Shown here in pieces: positions 1 to 60,000 of a stretch of DNA of 64,000 nt; positions within the stretch are counted from its first letter, which is position 1; every line of letters starts with the position of its first letter. A program made the position numbers. Source of the stretch: Octopus vulgaris (Eukaryota); assembly GCA_951406725.2 (NCBI GenBank), contig OX597819.1:76260001-76324000 (forward strand), in the 5' to 3' direction.

Positions 1-3000
1 ACGACTCTATATTTTTGCTTCCGACTATTTTGGATGCCCGCAAGGAAAGGCTTTTACAGTAACGTACTCAGTTTGCAAGATTCTTTATATGAGTTCGTGT
101 GTTGAAGCTTATTCTGTTGTGTCTGGGGAGAGTAATTTTCTTTTTGTGCCTTATAATTTGACACACCCATCGGTAAAATTTCCTCTTATTTCTCATTTCT
201 TTTGCGCTAAGAGTCAAGACTATTGAAAAGGTTCCAAGACGCAACGAAAATTTTAGGAAAATAAAAACAAGATATAGTAGAAATGTTACCGGTGAGTGTG
301 TTAAATTATAAGGCAAAAAGAAAATGCCTCTCCCCAGACACAACAGTATATGTATATATATATAATTTCAACAATTGAGGGTAAAATTAATTAGTTATTA
401 ATCAATTTCACCAAGTGTTCAGTATGCAAAGGGACCATTTAAGGCGAATTCAAATTATTACATTATATAAAAGGGCTTAGTAAAATAAATTACTTCGCCG
501 CATACTGAACTCATTAGAAATAGCAGCTAAAAAACTTTTTTAAAGCTATTTCTAATACTTAAAGAAAATCTCTCTCATATATAGCGTTTGCTTAATTCAA
601 CTCACAAAAGTTTGGGGTAAGGACATTAAAAAATCAAATGCTAAGGTTATTTGAGTACGTACGTTTCAAGATTAGTCAAAACAACATTTCTCTCTTCAGC
701 TCAGAAATTCCTTGGTTTGGATTTGGAAACACTGAAAGCAAGAACATACCCTTTCGAAGATCCGCTCTTAACTAACAGTGCCAACAAACCCAAAATAAGC
801 AAGTGAATCATTTCTGTTCTCCCCTTTCCACCAGCGTGGGTTAAAATCATCAAACGCTATGCTTATTTCGGTAAAATCCGAAGCATTAATTAGAGGGAAA
901 AAAGTTTTTTAGCTGCTATTTCTAATGAGTTCAGTATGCGGCGAAGTAATTTATTTTACTAAGCCCTTTTATATAATGTAATAATTTGAATTCGCCTTAA
1001 ATGGTCCCTTTGCATACTGAACACTTGGTGAAATTGATTAATAATTAATTAATTTTACCCTCAATTGTTGAAATTATAATGAATCTCCCTCTAATTAATG
1101 CTTCGGATTTTACCGAAATAAGCATAGCGTTTGATGATTTTAACCCACGCTGGTGGAAAGGGGAGAACAGAAATGATTCACTTGCTTATTTTGGGTTTGT
1201 TGGCACTGTTAGTTAAGAGCGGATCTTCGAAAGGGTATGTTCTTGCTTTCAGTGTTTCCAAATCCAAACCAAGGAATTTCTGAGCTGAAGAGAGAAATGT
1301 TGTTTTGACTAATCTTGAAACGTACGTACTCAAATAACCTTAGCATTTGATTTTTTAATGTCCTTACCCCCAAACTTTTGTGAGTTGAATTAAGCAAACG
1401 CTATATATGAGAGAGATTTTCTTTAAGTATTAGAAATAGCTTTAAAAAAGTTTTTTAGCTGCTATTTCTAATGAGTTCAGTATGCGGCGAAGTAATTTAT
1501 TTTACTAAGCCCTTTTATATAATGTAATAATTTGAATTCGCCTTAAATGGTCCCTTTGCATACTGAACACTTGGTGAAATTGATTAATAACTAATTAATT
1601 TTACCCTCAATTGTTGAAATTATAATGAATCTCCCTCTAATTAATGCTTCGGATTTTACCGAAATAAGCATAGCGTTTGATGATTTTAACCCACGCTGGT
1701 GGAAAGGGGAGAACAGAAATGATTCACTTGCTTATTTTGGGTTTGTTGGCACTGTTAGTTAAGAGCGGATCTTCGAAAGGGTATGTTCTTGCTTTCAGTG
1801 TTTCCAAATCCAAACCAAGGAATTTCTGAGCTGAAGAGAGAAATGTTGTTTTGACTAATCTTGAAACGTACGTACTCAAATAACCTTAGCATTTGATTTT
1901 TTAATGTCCTTACCCCCAAACTTTTGTGAGTTGAATTAAGCAAACGCTATATATGAGAGAGATTTTCTTTAAGTATTAGAAATAGCTTTAAAAAAGTTTT
2001 TTAGCTGCTATTTCTAATGAGTTCAGTATGCGGCGAAGTAATTTATTTTACTAAGCCCTTTTATATAATGTAATAATTTGAATTCGCCTTAAATGGTCCC
2101 TTTGCATACTGAACACTTGGTGAAATTGATTAATAACTAATTAATTTTACCCTCAATTGTTGAAATTATAATGAATCTCCCTCTAATTAATGCTTCGGAT
2201 TTTACCGAAATAAGCATAGCGTTTGATGATTTTAACCCACGCTGGTGGAAAGGGGAGAACAGAAATGATTCACTTGCTTATTTTGGGTTTGTTGGCACTG
2301 TTAGTTAAGAGCGGATCTTCGAAAGGGTATGTTCTTGCTTTCAGTGTTTCCAAATCCAAACCAAGGAATTTCTGAGCTGAAGAGAGAAATGTTGTTTTGA
2401 CTAATCTTGAAACGTACGTACTCAAATAACCTTAGCATTTGATTTTTTAATGTCCTTACCCCCAAACTTTTGTGAGTTGAATTAAGCAAACGCTATATAT
2501 GAGAGAGATTTTCTTTAAGTATTAGAAATAGCTTTAAAAAAGTTTTTTAGCTGCTATTTCTAATGAGTTCAGTATGCGGCGAAGTAATTTATTTTACTAA
2601 GCCCTTTTATATAATGTATATATATATATATATATATATCGTTACTATTGTGTTAAACTGTAGTATGTCCAAATTTGGCTAAATGCGATTTTTTTCAATA
2701 TTTATTTTTGCTTGGAATAGCCGGTTCTTTTGGTCAAACTATCGTATCTCCAGCTGCTTCAAATGCCAAGATATCAAAACTTGTCAAAGTGTAGTACAGT
2801 AGCTTGTGACTCGATACAATTGTGAGGAATACGAATATTTTATCTTCCTACACAATGAAAGTGATTGCGTTTATTCCACCGAGTGATCTTCTGAATGCTT
2901 TTCATTTAGAGGAAGAAAATTTGAGTAAATATCAAAATCAGATAAGAGTAGGATATGCTCTGTATGAAAACATTTTTTTGTAATCGATGTTCAGTTTTAG

Positions 3001-57000: not shown

Positions 57001-60000
57001 AGGCAAGGTTAAATGCAAACGAGAAATGGTGCTGCCAGGTCAAGGTATGTGTTTCTTAAAAACATAAAGACCTGTTAAAGTTTTACTGATATCATTTCTA
57101 TCATTGAAAATTGTTTACTTTTAATAGATTTAAAGTACATGTTTGTAAGTGTTCTATCTATCTATCTATCTATCTATCTATCTATCTATCTATCTATCTA
57201 TCTATCTATCTATCTATCTATCTATCTATCTCCCTCTCTCTCTCTCTGTATATATATATATATATATATATATATATATTTATATATATTGATAGAACTG
57301 GTAAGACAACAAAAGAATTTAAGAGACCTCGATATTATGTAAATAGAGGAATTTATCTGTAAATGTAATACGTGACAATTATTCGGTAGCCATGATAAAA
57401 CTCCAAGTTTCGGATGTTGGGGCGGAAATCCCCGCTGCCATCTCTTCAGTTATCCGGCCGGCGTGGGTTTCGGCCTCGACATCCGAAAATCGGAGTTTTA
57501 TCATGGCTACCGAATAATTGTCACATATTATATTTACAGATATATATATATATATATATATATATATATATATATATATATAGGGAGAAAAAGTTAGTTT
57601 TAAATCTCTGAGCGAGAAATATGTAGTAACAGTACTACAGAGTAAAGTCTAGTTGTCAACGTAAAGTGGCAGTCCTGATTAGGAGGGTATTACTACCTTT
57701 TTAGCACCAGGAAAACATCTTTTCCAGCTGGTTATCGACGCACAACTGCGTCCTTACACCTCGAAGGGAGCTAATGTTCCCACTCGGCCCTATACGTTAC
57801 CTGCAGACCAATGGGTCCTGGGTTATTTTTCTTCATCAGCACAGGATAACCGCTGGCTAGAGGTTGCAGCTCTAGGCCTTGCTTGAGATATATAGTTTTA
57901 GTCACACACAATTACGGATCTCGTAAGGAGTAAAAATAGTTTTAAATCTCTGGGCGAGAAATAAATAATGACAGTACTACAGAGTAAAGACTATTTGACA
58001 ACGTAAAGACCTGACTAGGAGGGTGTTACTCCCTTTTTTTGGCCTCCTTACTAAATTACTCATGAGAAATTTACAGTGAGGACATGATATGTTTTGGGAT
58101 GTGTTGTATCCGTATTCTTCATTCATGCTGATTCATTCAACTTGTTTAACATCCAAAGTTTCCGGACATTTTGACTGCCATAAATTTTCTTGTTTTTATT
58201 TCTCTCAAATTCTGTATCACTTATATATAGAAAGTGTTTAAATCATGAATGTTTTGCCAAAATAAAGCAATACGCCTGGAGTAGAATGAGAATGTCATTG
58301 ATGTGGTTGTGAAAGGACCCAGACAAACCTGGAAGAGTGACTGATTGACTGAACAATTAATTTTAAAAATTGACTAGTTAATTGGTTAATTAGTTAATTG
58401 GCTGACTAATAATAATAGCAGAAGTGAAATAGAACCCGTGCGTGGAATTATTATTGGCCTTATTACCTTCCACATGTACAACAAATATTGTGTGTAAATT
58501 TGGTTCCAATTTATATTTAGTTGAAATGGATCGCTATATCCATCGCCTTTTAGGCAAACAGCCAGCAATTTAGCTATGAAATAATATTCAACGCCTTAAT
58601 GATAAGACCCACTCCCACTCCGCCGCTGTTATTCTAGTGCAGATTAATTAGTTGAATGGAAATGAAATCTTAGTACTATAAATCTATTTGCAAGTTTGGC
58701 GTATTTTCTGGTGACTTATTGTGTGCAATCGGTGTACATAACTTTTAACCTGAATGAATTTATATAAAGCATGGATGGGTGTACTTTTATTCGACCAACG
58801 GAATTAGTGTTTCAATCGAAGCTTCACTAATAACTAAATCATTGTTGAAATTCTACATCTGCGTGAGTATAAATCAACAGTAGAAGCCATAATATTTCAA
58901 TTCAATGAGCAAACACTGTAGTTTAATGAAAACTATAAAAGTGCAACATTTACAGATTTCGAGTTCGTTTTCCTGCATTGCTTTATAGAACTGTATAAAG
59001 AGTGGAAGTTCTATATTTAAGAGAAGAGGAATTATGTACATTATATACATTACTTACATTTGAGCGATATAACACAACGTTTCGGCTGATATACCCTTCA
59101 GCCTTCATCAGGTGTCTTGGGGAAATTTCGAACTGGGTTCTCATTCCTGAGATATTTTTCTATCTTCTTCTTCTTCTTCTTCTTCTTCTTCTTCTTCTTC
59201 TTCTTCTTCTTCTTCTTCTTCTTCTTCTTCTTCTTCTTCTTCTTCTACTCCTTCTTCTTCTTCTTCTTCTTCTTCTTCTTCTTCTTCTTCTTCTTCTTCT
59301 TCTTCTTCTTCTTCTTCTTCTTCTTCTTCTTCTTCTTCTTCTTCTTCTTCTTCTTCTTCTTCTTCTTCTTCTTCTTCTTCTTCTTCAACTTCTCCTTCTT
59401 CTTCTTCGACTTCTCCTCCTCTTCTTCTCCTTCTTCTCCTTCTTCTTCTTCATCTTCTCCTTCTTCTTCTTCATCTTCTCCTTCTTCTTCTTCTTCTTCT
59501 TCTTCTTCCTCTTCTTCTTCTTCTTCTTCTTCTTCTTCTTCTTCTTCTTCTTCTTCTACTTCTTCTTAATAATAATAAAATAATAATAATAATAATAATA
59601 TCATTAAAAAATAACAAGATCATGACAGATATCCGTCAGATGTAAGTAATGTATATCGTCTTTTGTTTATTTTCATAAAGCTTCCCGTTATATATATATA
59701 TATATATACATACATATATATGTATGTATATTTTAAAAATCTTAGGGAATAATAAGTATTCCAGGTTATTAGGACATTTACTATTTTACTCTTTACTAAT
59801 GCAATATCTTCTTTCCCCACAGACTAATAACAGCTAAGTTATATATATATTGTTCCAAATATTTTTTTTAACTCATTTAAAAAAAATAAATTTATTGTAT
59901 TTTATAGTAGGTTTTTTAAATGCTTATATTATTTTCTTTGATATAACTGTCTATGTGCATTCCATACAATAATGTCATCCTGAAACAGGAGTTGCGGTTC

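What the first reader, a model, noticed from the sequence alone, without database searches (positions are those of the whole stretch)
114..57542. Recurrent fold-back architecture in at least eight unrelated inserts beside (TA)n
Seen: inverted arms at 114-346, 361-2618, 3648-4216, 12565-12875, 22832-23162, 32923-35750, 37793-38250, 41428-41845 and 57354-57542. Their sequences are mostly different. Usually one arm is long and one short, and nearly all have one or both outer ends in or next to (TA)n. Five carry hammerhead or partial hammerhead motifs. Inference: a single integration mechanism (Penelope-type two-ended priming on TA microsatellites) acting on many RNA templates, which may also help maintain the microsatellites.
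Basis: partly seen in the sequence, partly recalled or inferred. Interest (0 to 1): 0.7.

Follow-up and report, generated by a model that had tools for sequence, protein, structure and literature searches.

The report
Penelope-type head-to-head retroelement inserts at (TA)n
The fold-back inserts are real and are best read as the known insertion scar of Penelope-like retrotransposons and short passenger elements landing in TA microsatellites of a mollusc-like genome, so the finding is sound but mostly ordinary.

Summary
All nine listed loci hold inverted arms. At three of them the arms cover less than the stated span, and one locus is weak. 14 of 18 outer ends lie within 8 nt of a (TA)n array. 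A random position has a 0.07 chance of lying within 10 nt, and a control repeat family scores 1 of 18.

32923-35750 is two 5'-truncated copies of a Penelope-like element (PLE) lying head-to-head. It has a reverse transcriptase, a CX5CxxC linker and a GIY-YIG nuclease. Its 3' ends point out into (TA)n, and one end carries a ~36-nt tail.

361-2622 is one inverted full unit plus 3.2 tandem units of 546 nt, each with a hammerhead-like motif.

The inserts are not all unrelated. Three of the nine, plus one unlisted copy, share a ~170-nt 3' module.

Hammerhead-like motifs are enriched over shuffles, but only 2 of the 9 inserts pass my descriptors. Rfam finds none.

Tandem/inverted PLE insertions, (TA)n bias, cleavage and extension of both target strands, and mobilisation of other sequences in trans are all published.

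Verdict: new members of a known kind. The hairpin-only inserts could instead be microsatellite-targeting DNA transposons.

The parts
110..350 (.). E1: 241-nt hairpin-like insert with arms about 75% alike. The right end is 3 nt from (TA)n at 353-364. There is no (TA)n on the left.
   Evidence: No hammerhead-like motif and no shared module. Its class is ambiguous.
361..898 (-). E2 inverted arm: one full 538-nt unit. Its outer end sits at the family's canonical 3' end, in (TA)n.
898..2622 (+). E2 direct array: 3.16 tandem units of 546 nt. It starts inside an internal 45-nt palindrome of the unit and ends at an internal TA-rich site in (TA)n. A hammerhead-like motif is at 1281-1332, 1827-1878 and 2373-2424, and at 703-652 in the inverted arm.
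3649..4224 (.). E3: long arm 4013 to 3649 (minus sense) and short arm 4013 to 4224, with (TA)n at both outer ends. A relaxed hammerhead-like motif is at 3947-3866 (minus). It has decayed in the other arm.
12565..12875 (.). E4: long arm 12768 to 12565 (minus sense) and short arm 12768 to 12875 (93.5% alike), with (TA)n at both ends.
   Evidence: The match to the shared module is not significant (E 1.9).
22832..23160 (+). E5: plus-sense member of the module-M family. It has a perfect 52-nt palindrome at its 5' end (22832-22883) and a canonical 3' end 2 nt from (TA)n.
32923..34717 (-). E6 long arm: a 5'-truncated Penelope-like element. The ORF 33238-34731 (498 aa) holds the reverse transcriptase C-terminal part, a CX5CxxC linker and GIY-YIG. 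The outer end is in (TA)31.
34717..35745 (+). E6 short arm: the 3' 997 nt of the same element (99.0% alike, one frameshift) plus a ~36-nt tail (35710-35745), then (TA)n.
37512..37648 (+). E7a: 5'-truncated module-M copy without an inverted arm. Its 3' end abuts (AC)n and then (AT)n.
37793..38250 (.). E7b: head-to-head pair of module-M family copies. The left arm (minus) ends at an internal TA site in (AT)n. The right arm (plus) ends at the canonical 3' end, 1 nt from (TA)n. The inner parts of the two arms differ.
41411..41845 (+). E8: old, weak fold-back (66-76% alike). Its right half carries a tRNA-like head (about 41658-41735). The right end is 8 nt from (TA)n.
   Evidence: ARAGORN calls no tRNA.
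57290..57542 (.). E9: hairpin 57354-57542 (83% alike). The right end is in (TA)n. 64 nt without a partner separate the left arm from (TA)n at 57249-57279.
31489..31894 (+). E10 (not in the finding): ~405-nt insert bounded by (TA)n on both sides, with no inverted arm. It holds the best type-I hammerhead-like motif, 31579-31643.
   Evidence: Its likeness to E2 is only marginal (two collinear blocks, E 0.09 each).
59071..59116 (-). Minimal hammerhead-like motif of the kind described for PLEs: a bulged base after the core, a G-C pair closing helix II, and a 2-nt palindromic helix III.
   Evidence: Not found by Rfam.

Best explanation
The inserts are scars of target-primed reverse transcription by Penelope-like elements (PLEs) that cut (TA)n microsatellites.

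The enzyme is a reverse transcriptase fused to a GIY-YIG nuclease. A 5'-truncated copy of such an element sits in the window.

Proposed steps:
1. The nuclease nicks both strands of a (TA)n tract.
2. One 3' end primes cDNA at the template's proper 3' end. The other primes on an RNA at any UA-rich stretch that pairs with the TA end.
3. Both cDNAs run towards the RNA's 5' end, stop there or earlier, and are joined head to head.

The result is one long and one short inverted arm, 3' ends outward, with (TA)n on both sides. Template jumps sometimes add partial tandem copies.

The templates are the element's own RNA and short non-coding passengers. At least one passenger family shares a ~170-nt structured 3' module. 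Some passengers carry hammerhead-like motifs.

Shown here: the architecture, the orientation, the (TA)n association, the coding element and the shared module. Inferred: two-ended priming rather than snap-back self-priming, which enzyme moved which passenger, and RNA as the intermediate for the hairpin-only inserts.
For: 1. E6 (32923-35745) is a PLE by domain order and by relatives. RVT_1 scores 29.8 bits against a cut-off of 29.6. The CX5CxxC linker and a GIY-YIG core with two cysteines can be read in the translation. 646 proteins reach E<=1e-5 among the 8000 candidates scored, and the named ones shown are mollusc proteins or proteins filed under bivalve symbionts. The homologue P0008 (57% identical) passes both RVT_1 and GIY-YIG cut-offs.
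2. The two E6 copies are head-to-head with 3' ends outward. They are cut off at different 5' points, so their junction at 34717 is not a centre of symmetry. The right copy carries ~36 nt more at its 3' end. The papers describe a 30-40-bp tail at one end of PLE insertions (PMC8557442; PMC3846280).
3. E2 has one inverted full unit followed by 3.16 tandem units. This is the published layout of partial tandems plus an adjacent inverted copy.
4. Module-M copies occur with a long inverted arm (E2, E7b), with a 26-nt one (E5) and with none (E7a). The arm therefore belongs to the insertion event, not to the family. A DNA transposon would carry its terminal repeats in every copy.
5. In 6 of 6 asymmetric inserts the short arm runs into (TA)n where the longer copy itself reads TA, ATA, TATA or longer.
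6. 14 of 18 ends lie at (TA)n, against 1 of 18 for a control family.
7. Arm identities run from 99.8% down to about 66-75%. This fits a process active over a long time and argues against artefact for the diverged arms.
8. Hammerhead-like motifs: 3 distinct loci against a mean of 0.01 in 100 shuffles under the strict descriptor. Under the relaxed one, 5 loci against 0.68 in 50 shuffles.
9. A purified PLE protein cleaved and extended both target strands and started reverse transcription inside the RNA (PMC11167929 section 3).
Against: - No other copy of this genome and no reads could be examined, so no family consensus, empty site or target duplication was seen.
- E1, E9 and the E3 core are plain hairpins with symmetric ends and no coding or family link. 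They fit a DNA transposon equally well.
- The 3' untranslated region of the PLE copy shares nothing significant with the small inserts. No autonomous partner for them is identified.
- Rfam's covariance models find no hammerhead in any candidate.
- Two of four folded candidates are no more stable than shuffles, with z of +0.2 and 0.0.
- The best hammerhead-like motifs lie in inserts without inverted arms.
- The microhomologies are short (2-7 nt) in an AT-rich sequence.
- Arms at 99-100% identity (E2, E6) could in principle be assembly errors.
- The GIY-YIG match of the window's own ORF is below Pfam's cut-off (14-18 bits against 22.6).
Confidence: 0.62

Rival explanations
1. The hairpin-type inserts (E1, E3 core, E4, E9, perhaps E8) are non-autonomous DNA transposons (MITE or fold-back elements) that target TA microsatellites. 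The plant SaTar/MULE elements, which build modular arrays separated by (TA)n, are the model.
For: Inverted-repeat elements that target (TA)n and form clusters flanked by microsatellites are documented in guayule, rice, Medicago and maize (PMC5907723 passages; PMC4486113 abstract in the listing). E1 and E9 have symmetric termini. The window does hold one clear DNA-transposon MITE, 30796-31268, with CCC...GGG termini and TTAA-like flanks (read; the piggyBac label is recalled).
Against: That clear MITE is not at (TA)n; its ends are 673 and 201 nt away. E3, E4 and E9 have 154, 96 and 64 nt without a partner between one arm and the microsatellite, which fixed termini do not predict. This rival cannot explain E2, E5, E6 or E7b. 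The hairpin termini share no common end motif by eye.
Confidence: 0.2
2. The enzymes and target are the same, but the inverted arm arises by self-priming. The growing cDNA, or an antisense template, folds back on itself at the 5' end and is copied. There is no second priming event on the other target strand.
For: Four loci have arms that meet at a true centre of symmetry with no spacer: E1, E4, E9 and the perfect 52-nt palindrome at the 5' end of E5. At the E3 core the local match stops about 22 nt either side of the centre, though a short palindrome sits there. Palindromes at the inverted junction of PLEs, and 18- and 38-bp palindromes at the 5' ends of their terminal repeats, have been described and interpreted as self-priming (PMC3846280 passages). 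Module M itself begins with a conserved palindrome (1429-1472).
Against: In E6 the two copies stop at different 5' points, about 800 nt apart in the template. In E7b the inner parts of the arms differ, and the left one resembles E5 instead. Both fit two separate templates better. Extension from both strands is shown in vitro.
Confidence: 0.3
3. The inverted duplications form at the DNA level. (TA)n is self-complementary, folds into hairpins or cruciforms, breaks or stalls replication, and template switching copies the neighbouring sequence in reverse.
For: The unlisted palindrome 61529-62686 (98.6% alike) is centred exactly on (AT)47 and duplicates the 3' 533 nt of a LINE tail-to-tail. This is the geometry expected of fold-back at the repeat.
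Against: In all nine listed inserts the (TA)n lies at the outer ends and not at the centre. This rival does not predict tandem units, canonical family 3' ends or the coding PLE.
Confidence: 0.08
4. The near-identical arms (E2, E6, 61529-62686) are assembly or read artefacts such as chimeric fold-back reads.
For: Identities are 98.6-99.8%. The papers note that such structures trouble assemblies.
Against: The arms are not identical: there are 10 differences in 997 nt and a frameshift in E6. E6 and E2 have asymmetric, non-palindromic junctions. Six other inserts have arms 66-93% alike, which no artefact gives. No reads were available to test this.
Confidence: 0.05

Closest known systems
Canonical endonuclease-bearing Penelope-like elements with the CX2-5CxxC linker (Neptune/Nematis type)
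   Same: Reverse transcriptase followed by a C-terminal GIY-YIG nuclease, with a CX5CxxC motif in the linker. 5' truncation, an adjacent inverted copy, a ~36-nt tail at one end, and insertion in (TA)n (traits as described in PMC8557442).
   Different: Only the C-terminal 498 aa are present. No full pseudo-LTR is present, and no canonical hammerhead is found in the retained part by my descriptors. No tree was built with named reference elements, so the clade is not assigned.
Animal non-LTR retrozymes (tandem repeats with type-I hammerheads, thought to depend on PLEs)
   Same: E2 is an AT-rich tandem array. Each unit has a type-I hammerhead-like motif with a 1-bp helix III closed by a 6-nt palindromic loop. 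The described motifs have short stems with small palindromic loops (PMC4209133; PMC7229834). The abstract of bioRxiv 10.64898/2026.07.22.740005 derives retrozymes from PLE terminal repeats.
   Different: The unit is 546 nt, against the reported 150-450 nt. A G-U pair replaces the conserved G-C at the base of helix II. The unit boundary is not at the predicted cleavage site. There is an inverted full unit, which the passages I saw do not describe for retrozymes. No RNA data.
Trans-mobilisation of foreign sequences by PLE terminal repeats (Adineta vaga)
   Same: Unrelated bodies joined to a shared terminal module and flanked by direct and inverted repeats, with palindromes at the 5' junction (PMC3846280 passages).
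   Different: Here the shared module is a short non-coding 3' piece with no detected likeness to the resident PLE copy.
Microsatellite-targeted DNA transposons of plants (SaTar, MuTAnT, TAFTA)
   Same: Inverted-repeat elements bounded by (TA)n and stacked in arrays.
   Different: Those have fixed terminal repeats and, away from microsatellites, 10-bp target duplications. Here arm length varies among members of one family, and one insert encodes a reverse transcriptase.

Membership tests
Penelope-like element (endonuclease-bearing, C-terminal GIY-YIG) | Reverse transcriptase domain | tested here: met
   RVT_1 scores 29.8 bits against a cut-off of 29.6 on ORF 33238-34731. The margin is narrow. 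646 proteins reach E<=1e-5.
Penelope-like element (endonuclease-bearing, C-terminal GIY-YIG) | GIY-YIG nuclease C-terminal to the reverse transcriptase, with two cysteines inside the core | tested here: inconclusive
   The window's own ORFs score 14.0 and 18.3 bits, below the 22.6 cut-off. The motif and cysteines can be read in the translation. The relative P0008 (57% identical, 98% coverage) scores 26 bits in the same position.
Penelope-like element (endonuclease-bearing, C-terminal GIY-YIG) | CX2-5CxxC motif in the linker (Neptune/Nematis type) | tested here: met
   Read directly in the translation, upstream of the GIY-YIG core. The criterion comes from PMC8557442.
Penelope-like element (endonuclease-bearing, C-terminal GIY-YIG) | Insertion architecture: 5' truncation, adjacent inverted copy, 30-40-bp tail at one end | tested here: met
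   Arms 32923-34717 and 34717-35745, with ~36 extra nt at the right end.
Penelope-like element (endonuclease-bearing, C-terminal GIY-YIG) | Hammerhead motif in the terminal repeat | tested here: not met
   No hit inside 32923-35745 with either descriptor. By eye there is only a look-alike with two core changes near 35540-35575. The 5' terminal repeat is missing from both copies.
Hammerhead ribozyme, type I | Conserved core boxes with helices I, II and III in type-I order | tested here: met
   The strict descriptor finds 3 distinct loci (the E2 unit in 4 copies, 31579-31643, 59116-59071) against a mean of 0.01 in 100 shuffles. E2 has G-U instead of G-C at the base of helix II.
Hammerhead ribozyme, type I | Match to the curated covariance models | tested here: not met
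   No hammerhead family at gathering score or at E<=10 in 1-4300, 31520-31700 and 59020-59160. The minimal PLE variants are described as departing from canonical motifs (PMC4209133).
Hammerhead ribozyme, type I | Self-cleavage | not testable with these tools
   Needs in vitro transcription of monomer and dimer constructs.
Animal non-LTR retrozyme | Short tandem repeats, each with a type-I hammerhead, expressed as circular RNA | tested here: inconclusive
   The tandem array and motif are present in E2. The unit, at 546 nt, is longer than reported. There are no RNA data.
MITE or microsatellite-targeted DNA transposon | Terminal inverted repeats present and alike in every family member, with symmetric termini | tested here: not met
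   For the module-M family, members carry a 538-nt arm, a 102-nt arm, a 26-nt arm or none. For E1 and E9 the test could not be made, because there is only one copy of each in the window.

The most novel reading that the evidence does not exclude
A (TA)n-specific Penelope-type machinery in this genome copies many kinds of RNA in trans. These include hammerhead-bearing passengers, a tRNA-like SINE head and perhaps LINE 3' ends. It primes from both TA ends by simple UA pairing. Each event leaves a TA tract on both sides, so the elements spread and renew the very microsatellites they target. Old fold-back junctions then become fixed as hairpin modules in later families, as with the palindrome that opens module M. 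This would make PLE activity a main cause of the unusual (TA)n density and of the many unclassified short repeats in such genomes.
Probability: 0.15. Interest if true: 0.6.

Novelty: new member of a known kind. Interest (0 to 1): 0.33.

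Why it matters
The window gives a compact natural series, with arms from 99.8% down to about 66-75% alike, of the tandem/inverted insertions that make Penelope-like elements hard to annotate. It includes short non-coding passengers that standard pipelines would call unknown repeats, MITEs or SINEs.

If the two-template reading of 37793-38250 and 32923-35745 holds genome-wide, it would be in vivo support for the both-strand extension seen so far only in vitro.

The practical value is for repeat annotation of mollusc genomes. 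Head-to-head pairs with 3' ends in (TA)n should be curated as single retroelement insertions.

Tried and rejected
- Rfam at gathering scores found nothing in the window. The E-value search of the whole window was swamped by microsatellite look-alikes of microRNA families, and only 150 of 272 rows were visible. Three targeted E-value searches gave no hammerhead.
- Thermodynamic folding of four candidates gave support for only two.
- ARAGORN found no tRNA, so the tRNA-like head in 41658-41735 stays a reading by eye.
- A profile of module M did not significantly recover 12565-12660 (E 1.9) or the 31489-31894 insert. I do not count them as family members.
- The E2 / 31489-31894 relation rests on two short collinear blocks at E 0.09 each and on the shared hammerhead-like layout. 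I treat it as a lead only.
- A Pfam scan of 38 ORFs chosen from the 155 listed (those of about 100 aa or more, plus four shorter ones near features of interest) found only the PLE and one LINE reverse transcriptase. No transposase was found that could serve the hairpins.
- I considered Tc1/mariner-type TA duplication for the hairpins. It cannot be told apart from the surrounding (TA)n.
- The 3' untranslated region of the PLE showed no significant likeness to any small insert.
- Not attempted, because no suitable collection was open: any search of the rest of this genome, of reads, or of a related species. The open genome collection holds bacteria and archaea only.
- Supplements of the cited papers were not opened. 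Those of PMC4209133 and PMC8557442 may hold hammerhead alignments and target-site tables that bear on the membership calls.

Full report
**What the window is.** It is an AT-rich eukaryotic stretch (GC about 0.29-0.45 in 2-kb steps) with no N. It is crowded with microsatellites: TRF lists 110 rows, and my own scan finds 82 (TA)>=5 arrays covering 4.6% of the bases. Relatives of its one long retroelement ORF that carry a name come from molluscs (Argonauta, Saccostrea, Mytilus) or are filed under bivalve symbionts. I did not try to place the record further.

**The observation: inverted arms.** Every one of the nine listed loci contains inverted arms. They appear in local minus-strand searches and in a microsatellite-masked search of the whole window at E<=1e-6.
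- Five loci match the stated spans: 114-346, 361-2618, 32923-35750, 37793-38250 and 57354-57542.
- In 3648-4216 and 12565-12875 only the right-hand 407 and 215 nt form the palindrome. The left 162 and 96 nt have no partner.
- In 22832-23162 the only inverted part is a perfect 52-nt palindrome at the left end.
- 41428-41845 is weak (66-76% identity).

**Unlisted inverted repeats.** The same search shows four further compact inverted repeats:
- a 1.16-kb palindrome at 61529-62686;
- 30796-31268;
- 24881/25313 around an (AC)n tract;
- 37512/37852.

**The observation: (TA)n.** 14 of 18 outer ends lie within 8 nt of a (TA)n array. A random position has a 0.07 chance of lying within 10 nt. By my own arithmetic that puts the binomial tail near 1e-13. 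That number flatters the case, because the ends were drawn with the repeats in view. A fairer control is the commonest other repeat in the window, a 185-nt SINE-like family. Its merged copies have 1 of 18 ends within 10 nt of (TA)n. The association is therefore specific to these inserts and not a property of every repeat here.

**What the largest insert is.** 32923-35745 is two copies of a Penelope-like element.
- The minus-strand ORF 33238-34731 (498 aa) matches RVT_1 just above the cut-off.
- It continues through a CX5CxxC motif into a GIY-YIG core with two internal cysteines (translation).
- The GIY-YIG match is below Pfam's cut-off in the window's own copies. It passes in a 57%-identical full-length relative with the same domain order.
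- The left copy (minus) runs 1795 nt and the right copy (plus) 997 nt.
- They are 99.0% alike, and the short one has a frameshift.
- They meet at 34717 with no spacer, at different template positions, so the junction is not a centre of symmetry.
- Both 3' ends face outward into (TA)n.
- The left copy stops short at a run of TA within the 3' untranslated region. The right copy runs about 36 nt further.

These features are all described for PLEs: 5' truncation, an adjacent inverted copy, a 30-40-bp tail at one end, a CX2-5CxxC linker, and insertion in TA repeats. In the passages I read, the (TA)n bias is stated for Naiads and hypothesised to be mediated by the linker in Neptune (PMC8557442; PMC3846280).

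**The 546-nt array.** 361-2622 has one complete unit in inverted orientation (361-898), followed without spacer by 3.16 direct units (898-2622), all 99.8% alike.
- The inverted unit's outer end falls exactly where related copies elsewhere end before (TA)n. This is the family's normal 3' end.
- The array's right end falls at an internal TA-rich site.
- Each unit holds a type-I hammerhead-like motif. It has the seven-base core, a 4-bp helix II, the GAAA box, a single A-U pair closing a 6-nt palindromic loop, and a 4-bp helix I that can be extended by eye.
- That small palindromic helix III matches the description of metazoan and PLE hammerheads that work as dimers (PMC4209133).

**The inserts are not all unrelated.** A ~170-nt module occurs at the 3' end of the 546-nt unit, of 22958-23160, of 38062-38250 and of the unlisted 5'-truncated copy 37512-37648.
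- Pairwise identities are 65-88%.
- A profile search gives E from 1e-14 to 1e-46 for these and for their inverted arms, and nothing else significant.
- The consensus fold is a long hairpin plus a small 3' hairpin. 6 of 35 pairs are kept through changes on both sides, but with only three sequences this is thin evidence.
- The module opens with a short palindrome in all three full copies.

Members of this one family carry an inverted arm of 538 nt, of 102 nt, of 26 nt, or none. The arm is thus a product of each insertion and not part of the element. This is the main argument against a DNA-transposon reading for these four loci.

**37793-38250 in detail.** The two arms are 87% alike over the module part. 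Inward of it they differ, and the left arm's inner part resembles 22883-22965 instead. Two different templates copied head to head fit this better than one strand folded back on itself.

**Junctions.** In the six asymmetric inserts (361-2622, 3649-4224, 12565-12875, 32923-35745, 37793-38250, 57290-57542), the shorter or internally ended copy passes into (TA)n at a point where the longer copy reads TA, ATA, TATA or up to seven alternating bases. This fits priming by a TA end annealed to a UA-rich patch of RNA. The matches are short for an AT-rich sequence, so I give them modest weight.

**Hammerheads.**
- A strict type-I descriptor finds three distinct loci: the 546-nt unit, 31579-31643 and 59116-59071. 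The mean in 100 dinucleotide shuffles is 0.01.
- A relaxed descriptor adds 3947-3866 and 4390-4356. That gives five distinct loci against 0.68 in 50 shuffles.
- 59116-59071 has the extra base after the core, the G-C pair at the base of helix II and the 2-nt palindromic helix III that the 2014 paper lists for PLE minimal hammerheads.
- Against this, Rfam finds no hammerhead anywhere I looked.
- Unconstrained folding supports only two of four candidates: z of -2.2 and -2.6, against +0.2 and 0.0.
- Only two of the nine listed inserts pass either descriptor.
- The two best motifs sit in inserts without inverted arms.

Hammerhead-like motifs mark this population of elements, but they are not tied to the fold-back layout.

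**What does not fit a single mechanism.**
- 60060-62061 is a LINE. It matches RVT_1 and is unrelated to the PLE protein.
- Its 3' end abuts (AT)47. A 5'-truncated inverted copy (62156-62685, 98.6% alike) lies on the other side, followed by (TA)n. All four ends are within 1 nt of TA arrays.
- This is tail-to-tail, the opposite of the nine listed inserts. It may reflect two hits in one hot spot, self-priming on a sense template (a possibility raised in PMC3846280), or fold-back of the DNA at the palindromic repeat.
- 30796-31268 has CCC...GGG termini and TTAA-like flanks. I recall these as piggyBac features. It lies far from any (TA)n, so an ordinary DNA-transposon MITE in this window does not share the association.

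**Mechanism.** The best reading is target-primed reverse transcription by a (TA)n-cutting PLE enzyme. cDNA is made from both cleaved strands. Both-strand cleavage and extension, and internal initiation, have been shown in vitro for one PLE (PMC11167929, section 3 part 1). Partial tandems would arise by template jumps. Passengers would be copied in trans, as reported for unrelated sequences flanked by PLE terminal repeats in a rotifer and proposed for animal retrozymes (abstract of bioRxiv 10.64898/2026.07.22.740005; PMC7229834).

The self-priming variant remains open for the inserts whose arms meet at a true centre of symmetry. For 114-346, 57354-57542 and the 3810-4216 core, a microsatellite-targeting DNA transposon of the kind known in plants (PMC5907723) cannot be excluded from one copy each.

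**Novelty.** The architecture, the target bias, the hammerhead link and trans-mobilisation are all in print. Four literature searches turned up no account of this module-M family or of such inserts in molluscs. An octopus repeat survey lists active PLEs and some 900 unclassified SINE families without treating insertion structure (passages of PMC13282606). I did not open any supplements.

I rate the finding a new member of a known kind. It is a correct and careful observation whose explanation is largely established. The untested idea that the process renews (TA)n tracts is the most interesting remainder. A plant precedent of TA tracts expanding beside inserted elements is mentioned.

**What stayed unchecked.** The rest of this genome, raw reads, a related species and RNA data were not available.

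Noticed in passing
window 60060-62685: A LINE (reverse transcriptase ORF 60990-61721) ends in (AT)47. A 5'-truncated inverted copy of its last 533 nt (98.6% alike) lies tail-to-tail on the other side. All four ends are within 1 nt of TA arrays. The geometry is the opposite of the listed inserts.
   Followed up: partly
window 30796-31268: A fold-back insert with CCC...GGG termini and TTAA-like flanks (piggyBac-like by recall) interrupts an older LINE fragment (30591-30752 and 31344-31444). It is not near (TA)n.
   Followed up: partly
window 23176-23306, 56464-56569 (minus), 4317-4381 (minus), 59656-59692: A short repeat family. Three of its four copies (23176-23306, 56464-56569 and 59656-59692) end in the same 8-nt word directly before (TA)n. 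The 3' end of the fourth copy (4317-4381, minus) was not examined. The family carries remnants of a minimal hammerhead-like motif (relaxed hit at 4390-4356).
   Followed up: partly
window 4837-5767, 19469-20391, 26346-26776, 44025-44416 and five shorter copies: A 185-nt SINE-like repeat, often in tandem arrays of 2-3 units. Its ends are not associated with (TA)n (1 of 18).
   Followed up: partly
window 1429-1472 and the matching starts of the module at about 22958 and 38062: The shared 3' module opens with a short palindrome in all three full copies. This could be an old fold-back junction that became part of the family sequence.
   Followed up: no
window 41658-41735: A tRNA-like stretch with a B-box-like word. 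ARAGORN does not call it a tRNA. It may be the head of a SINE whose 5' end carries an old inverted partial copy.
   Followed up: partly
window 59158-59567 and 43247-44023: Very long trinucleotide arrays: (TTC) about 137 copies, and (TTG)62-(TTA)22 followed by (TTA)54. The (TTC) array starts about 40 nt from the minimal hammerhead-like motif at 59116-59071.
   Followed up: no
window 16901-17489: An older copy of the same LINE's 3' part (about 70% alike). Its 3' end lies about 40 nt before the (TCTA)n array that begins at 17529, not before (TA)n. The tract at the LINE's 3' end is therefore not constant.
   Followed up: no
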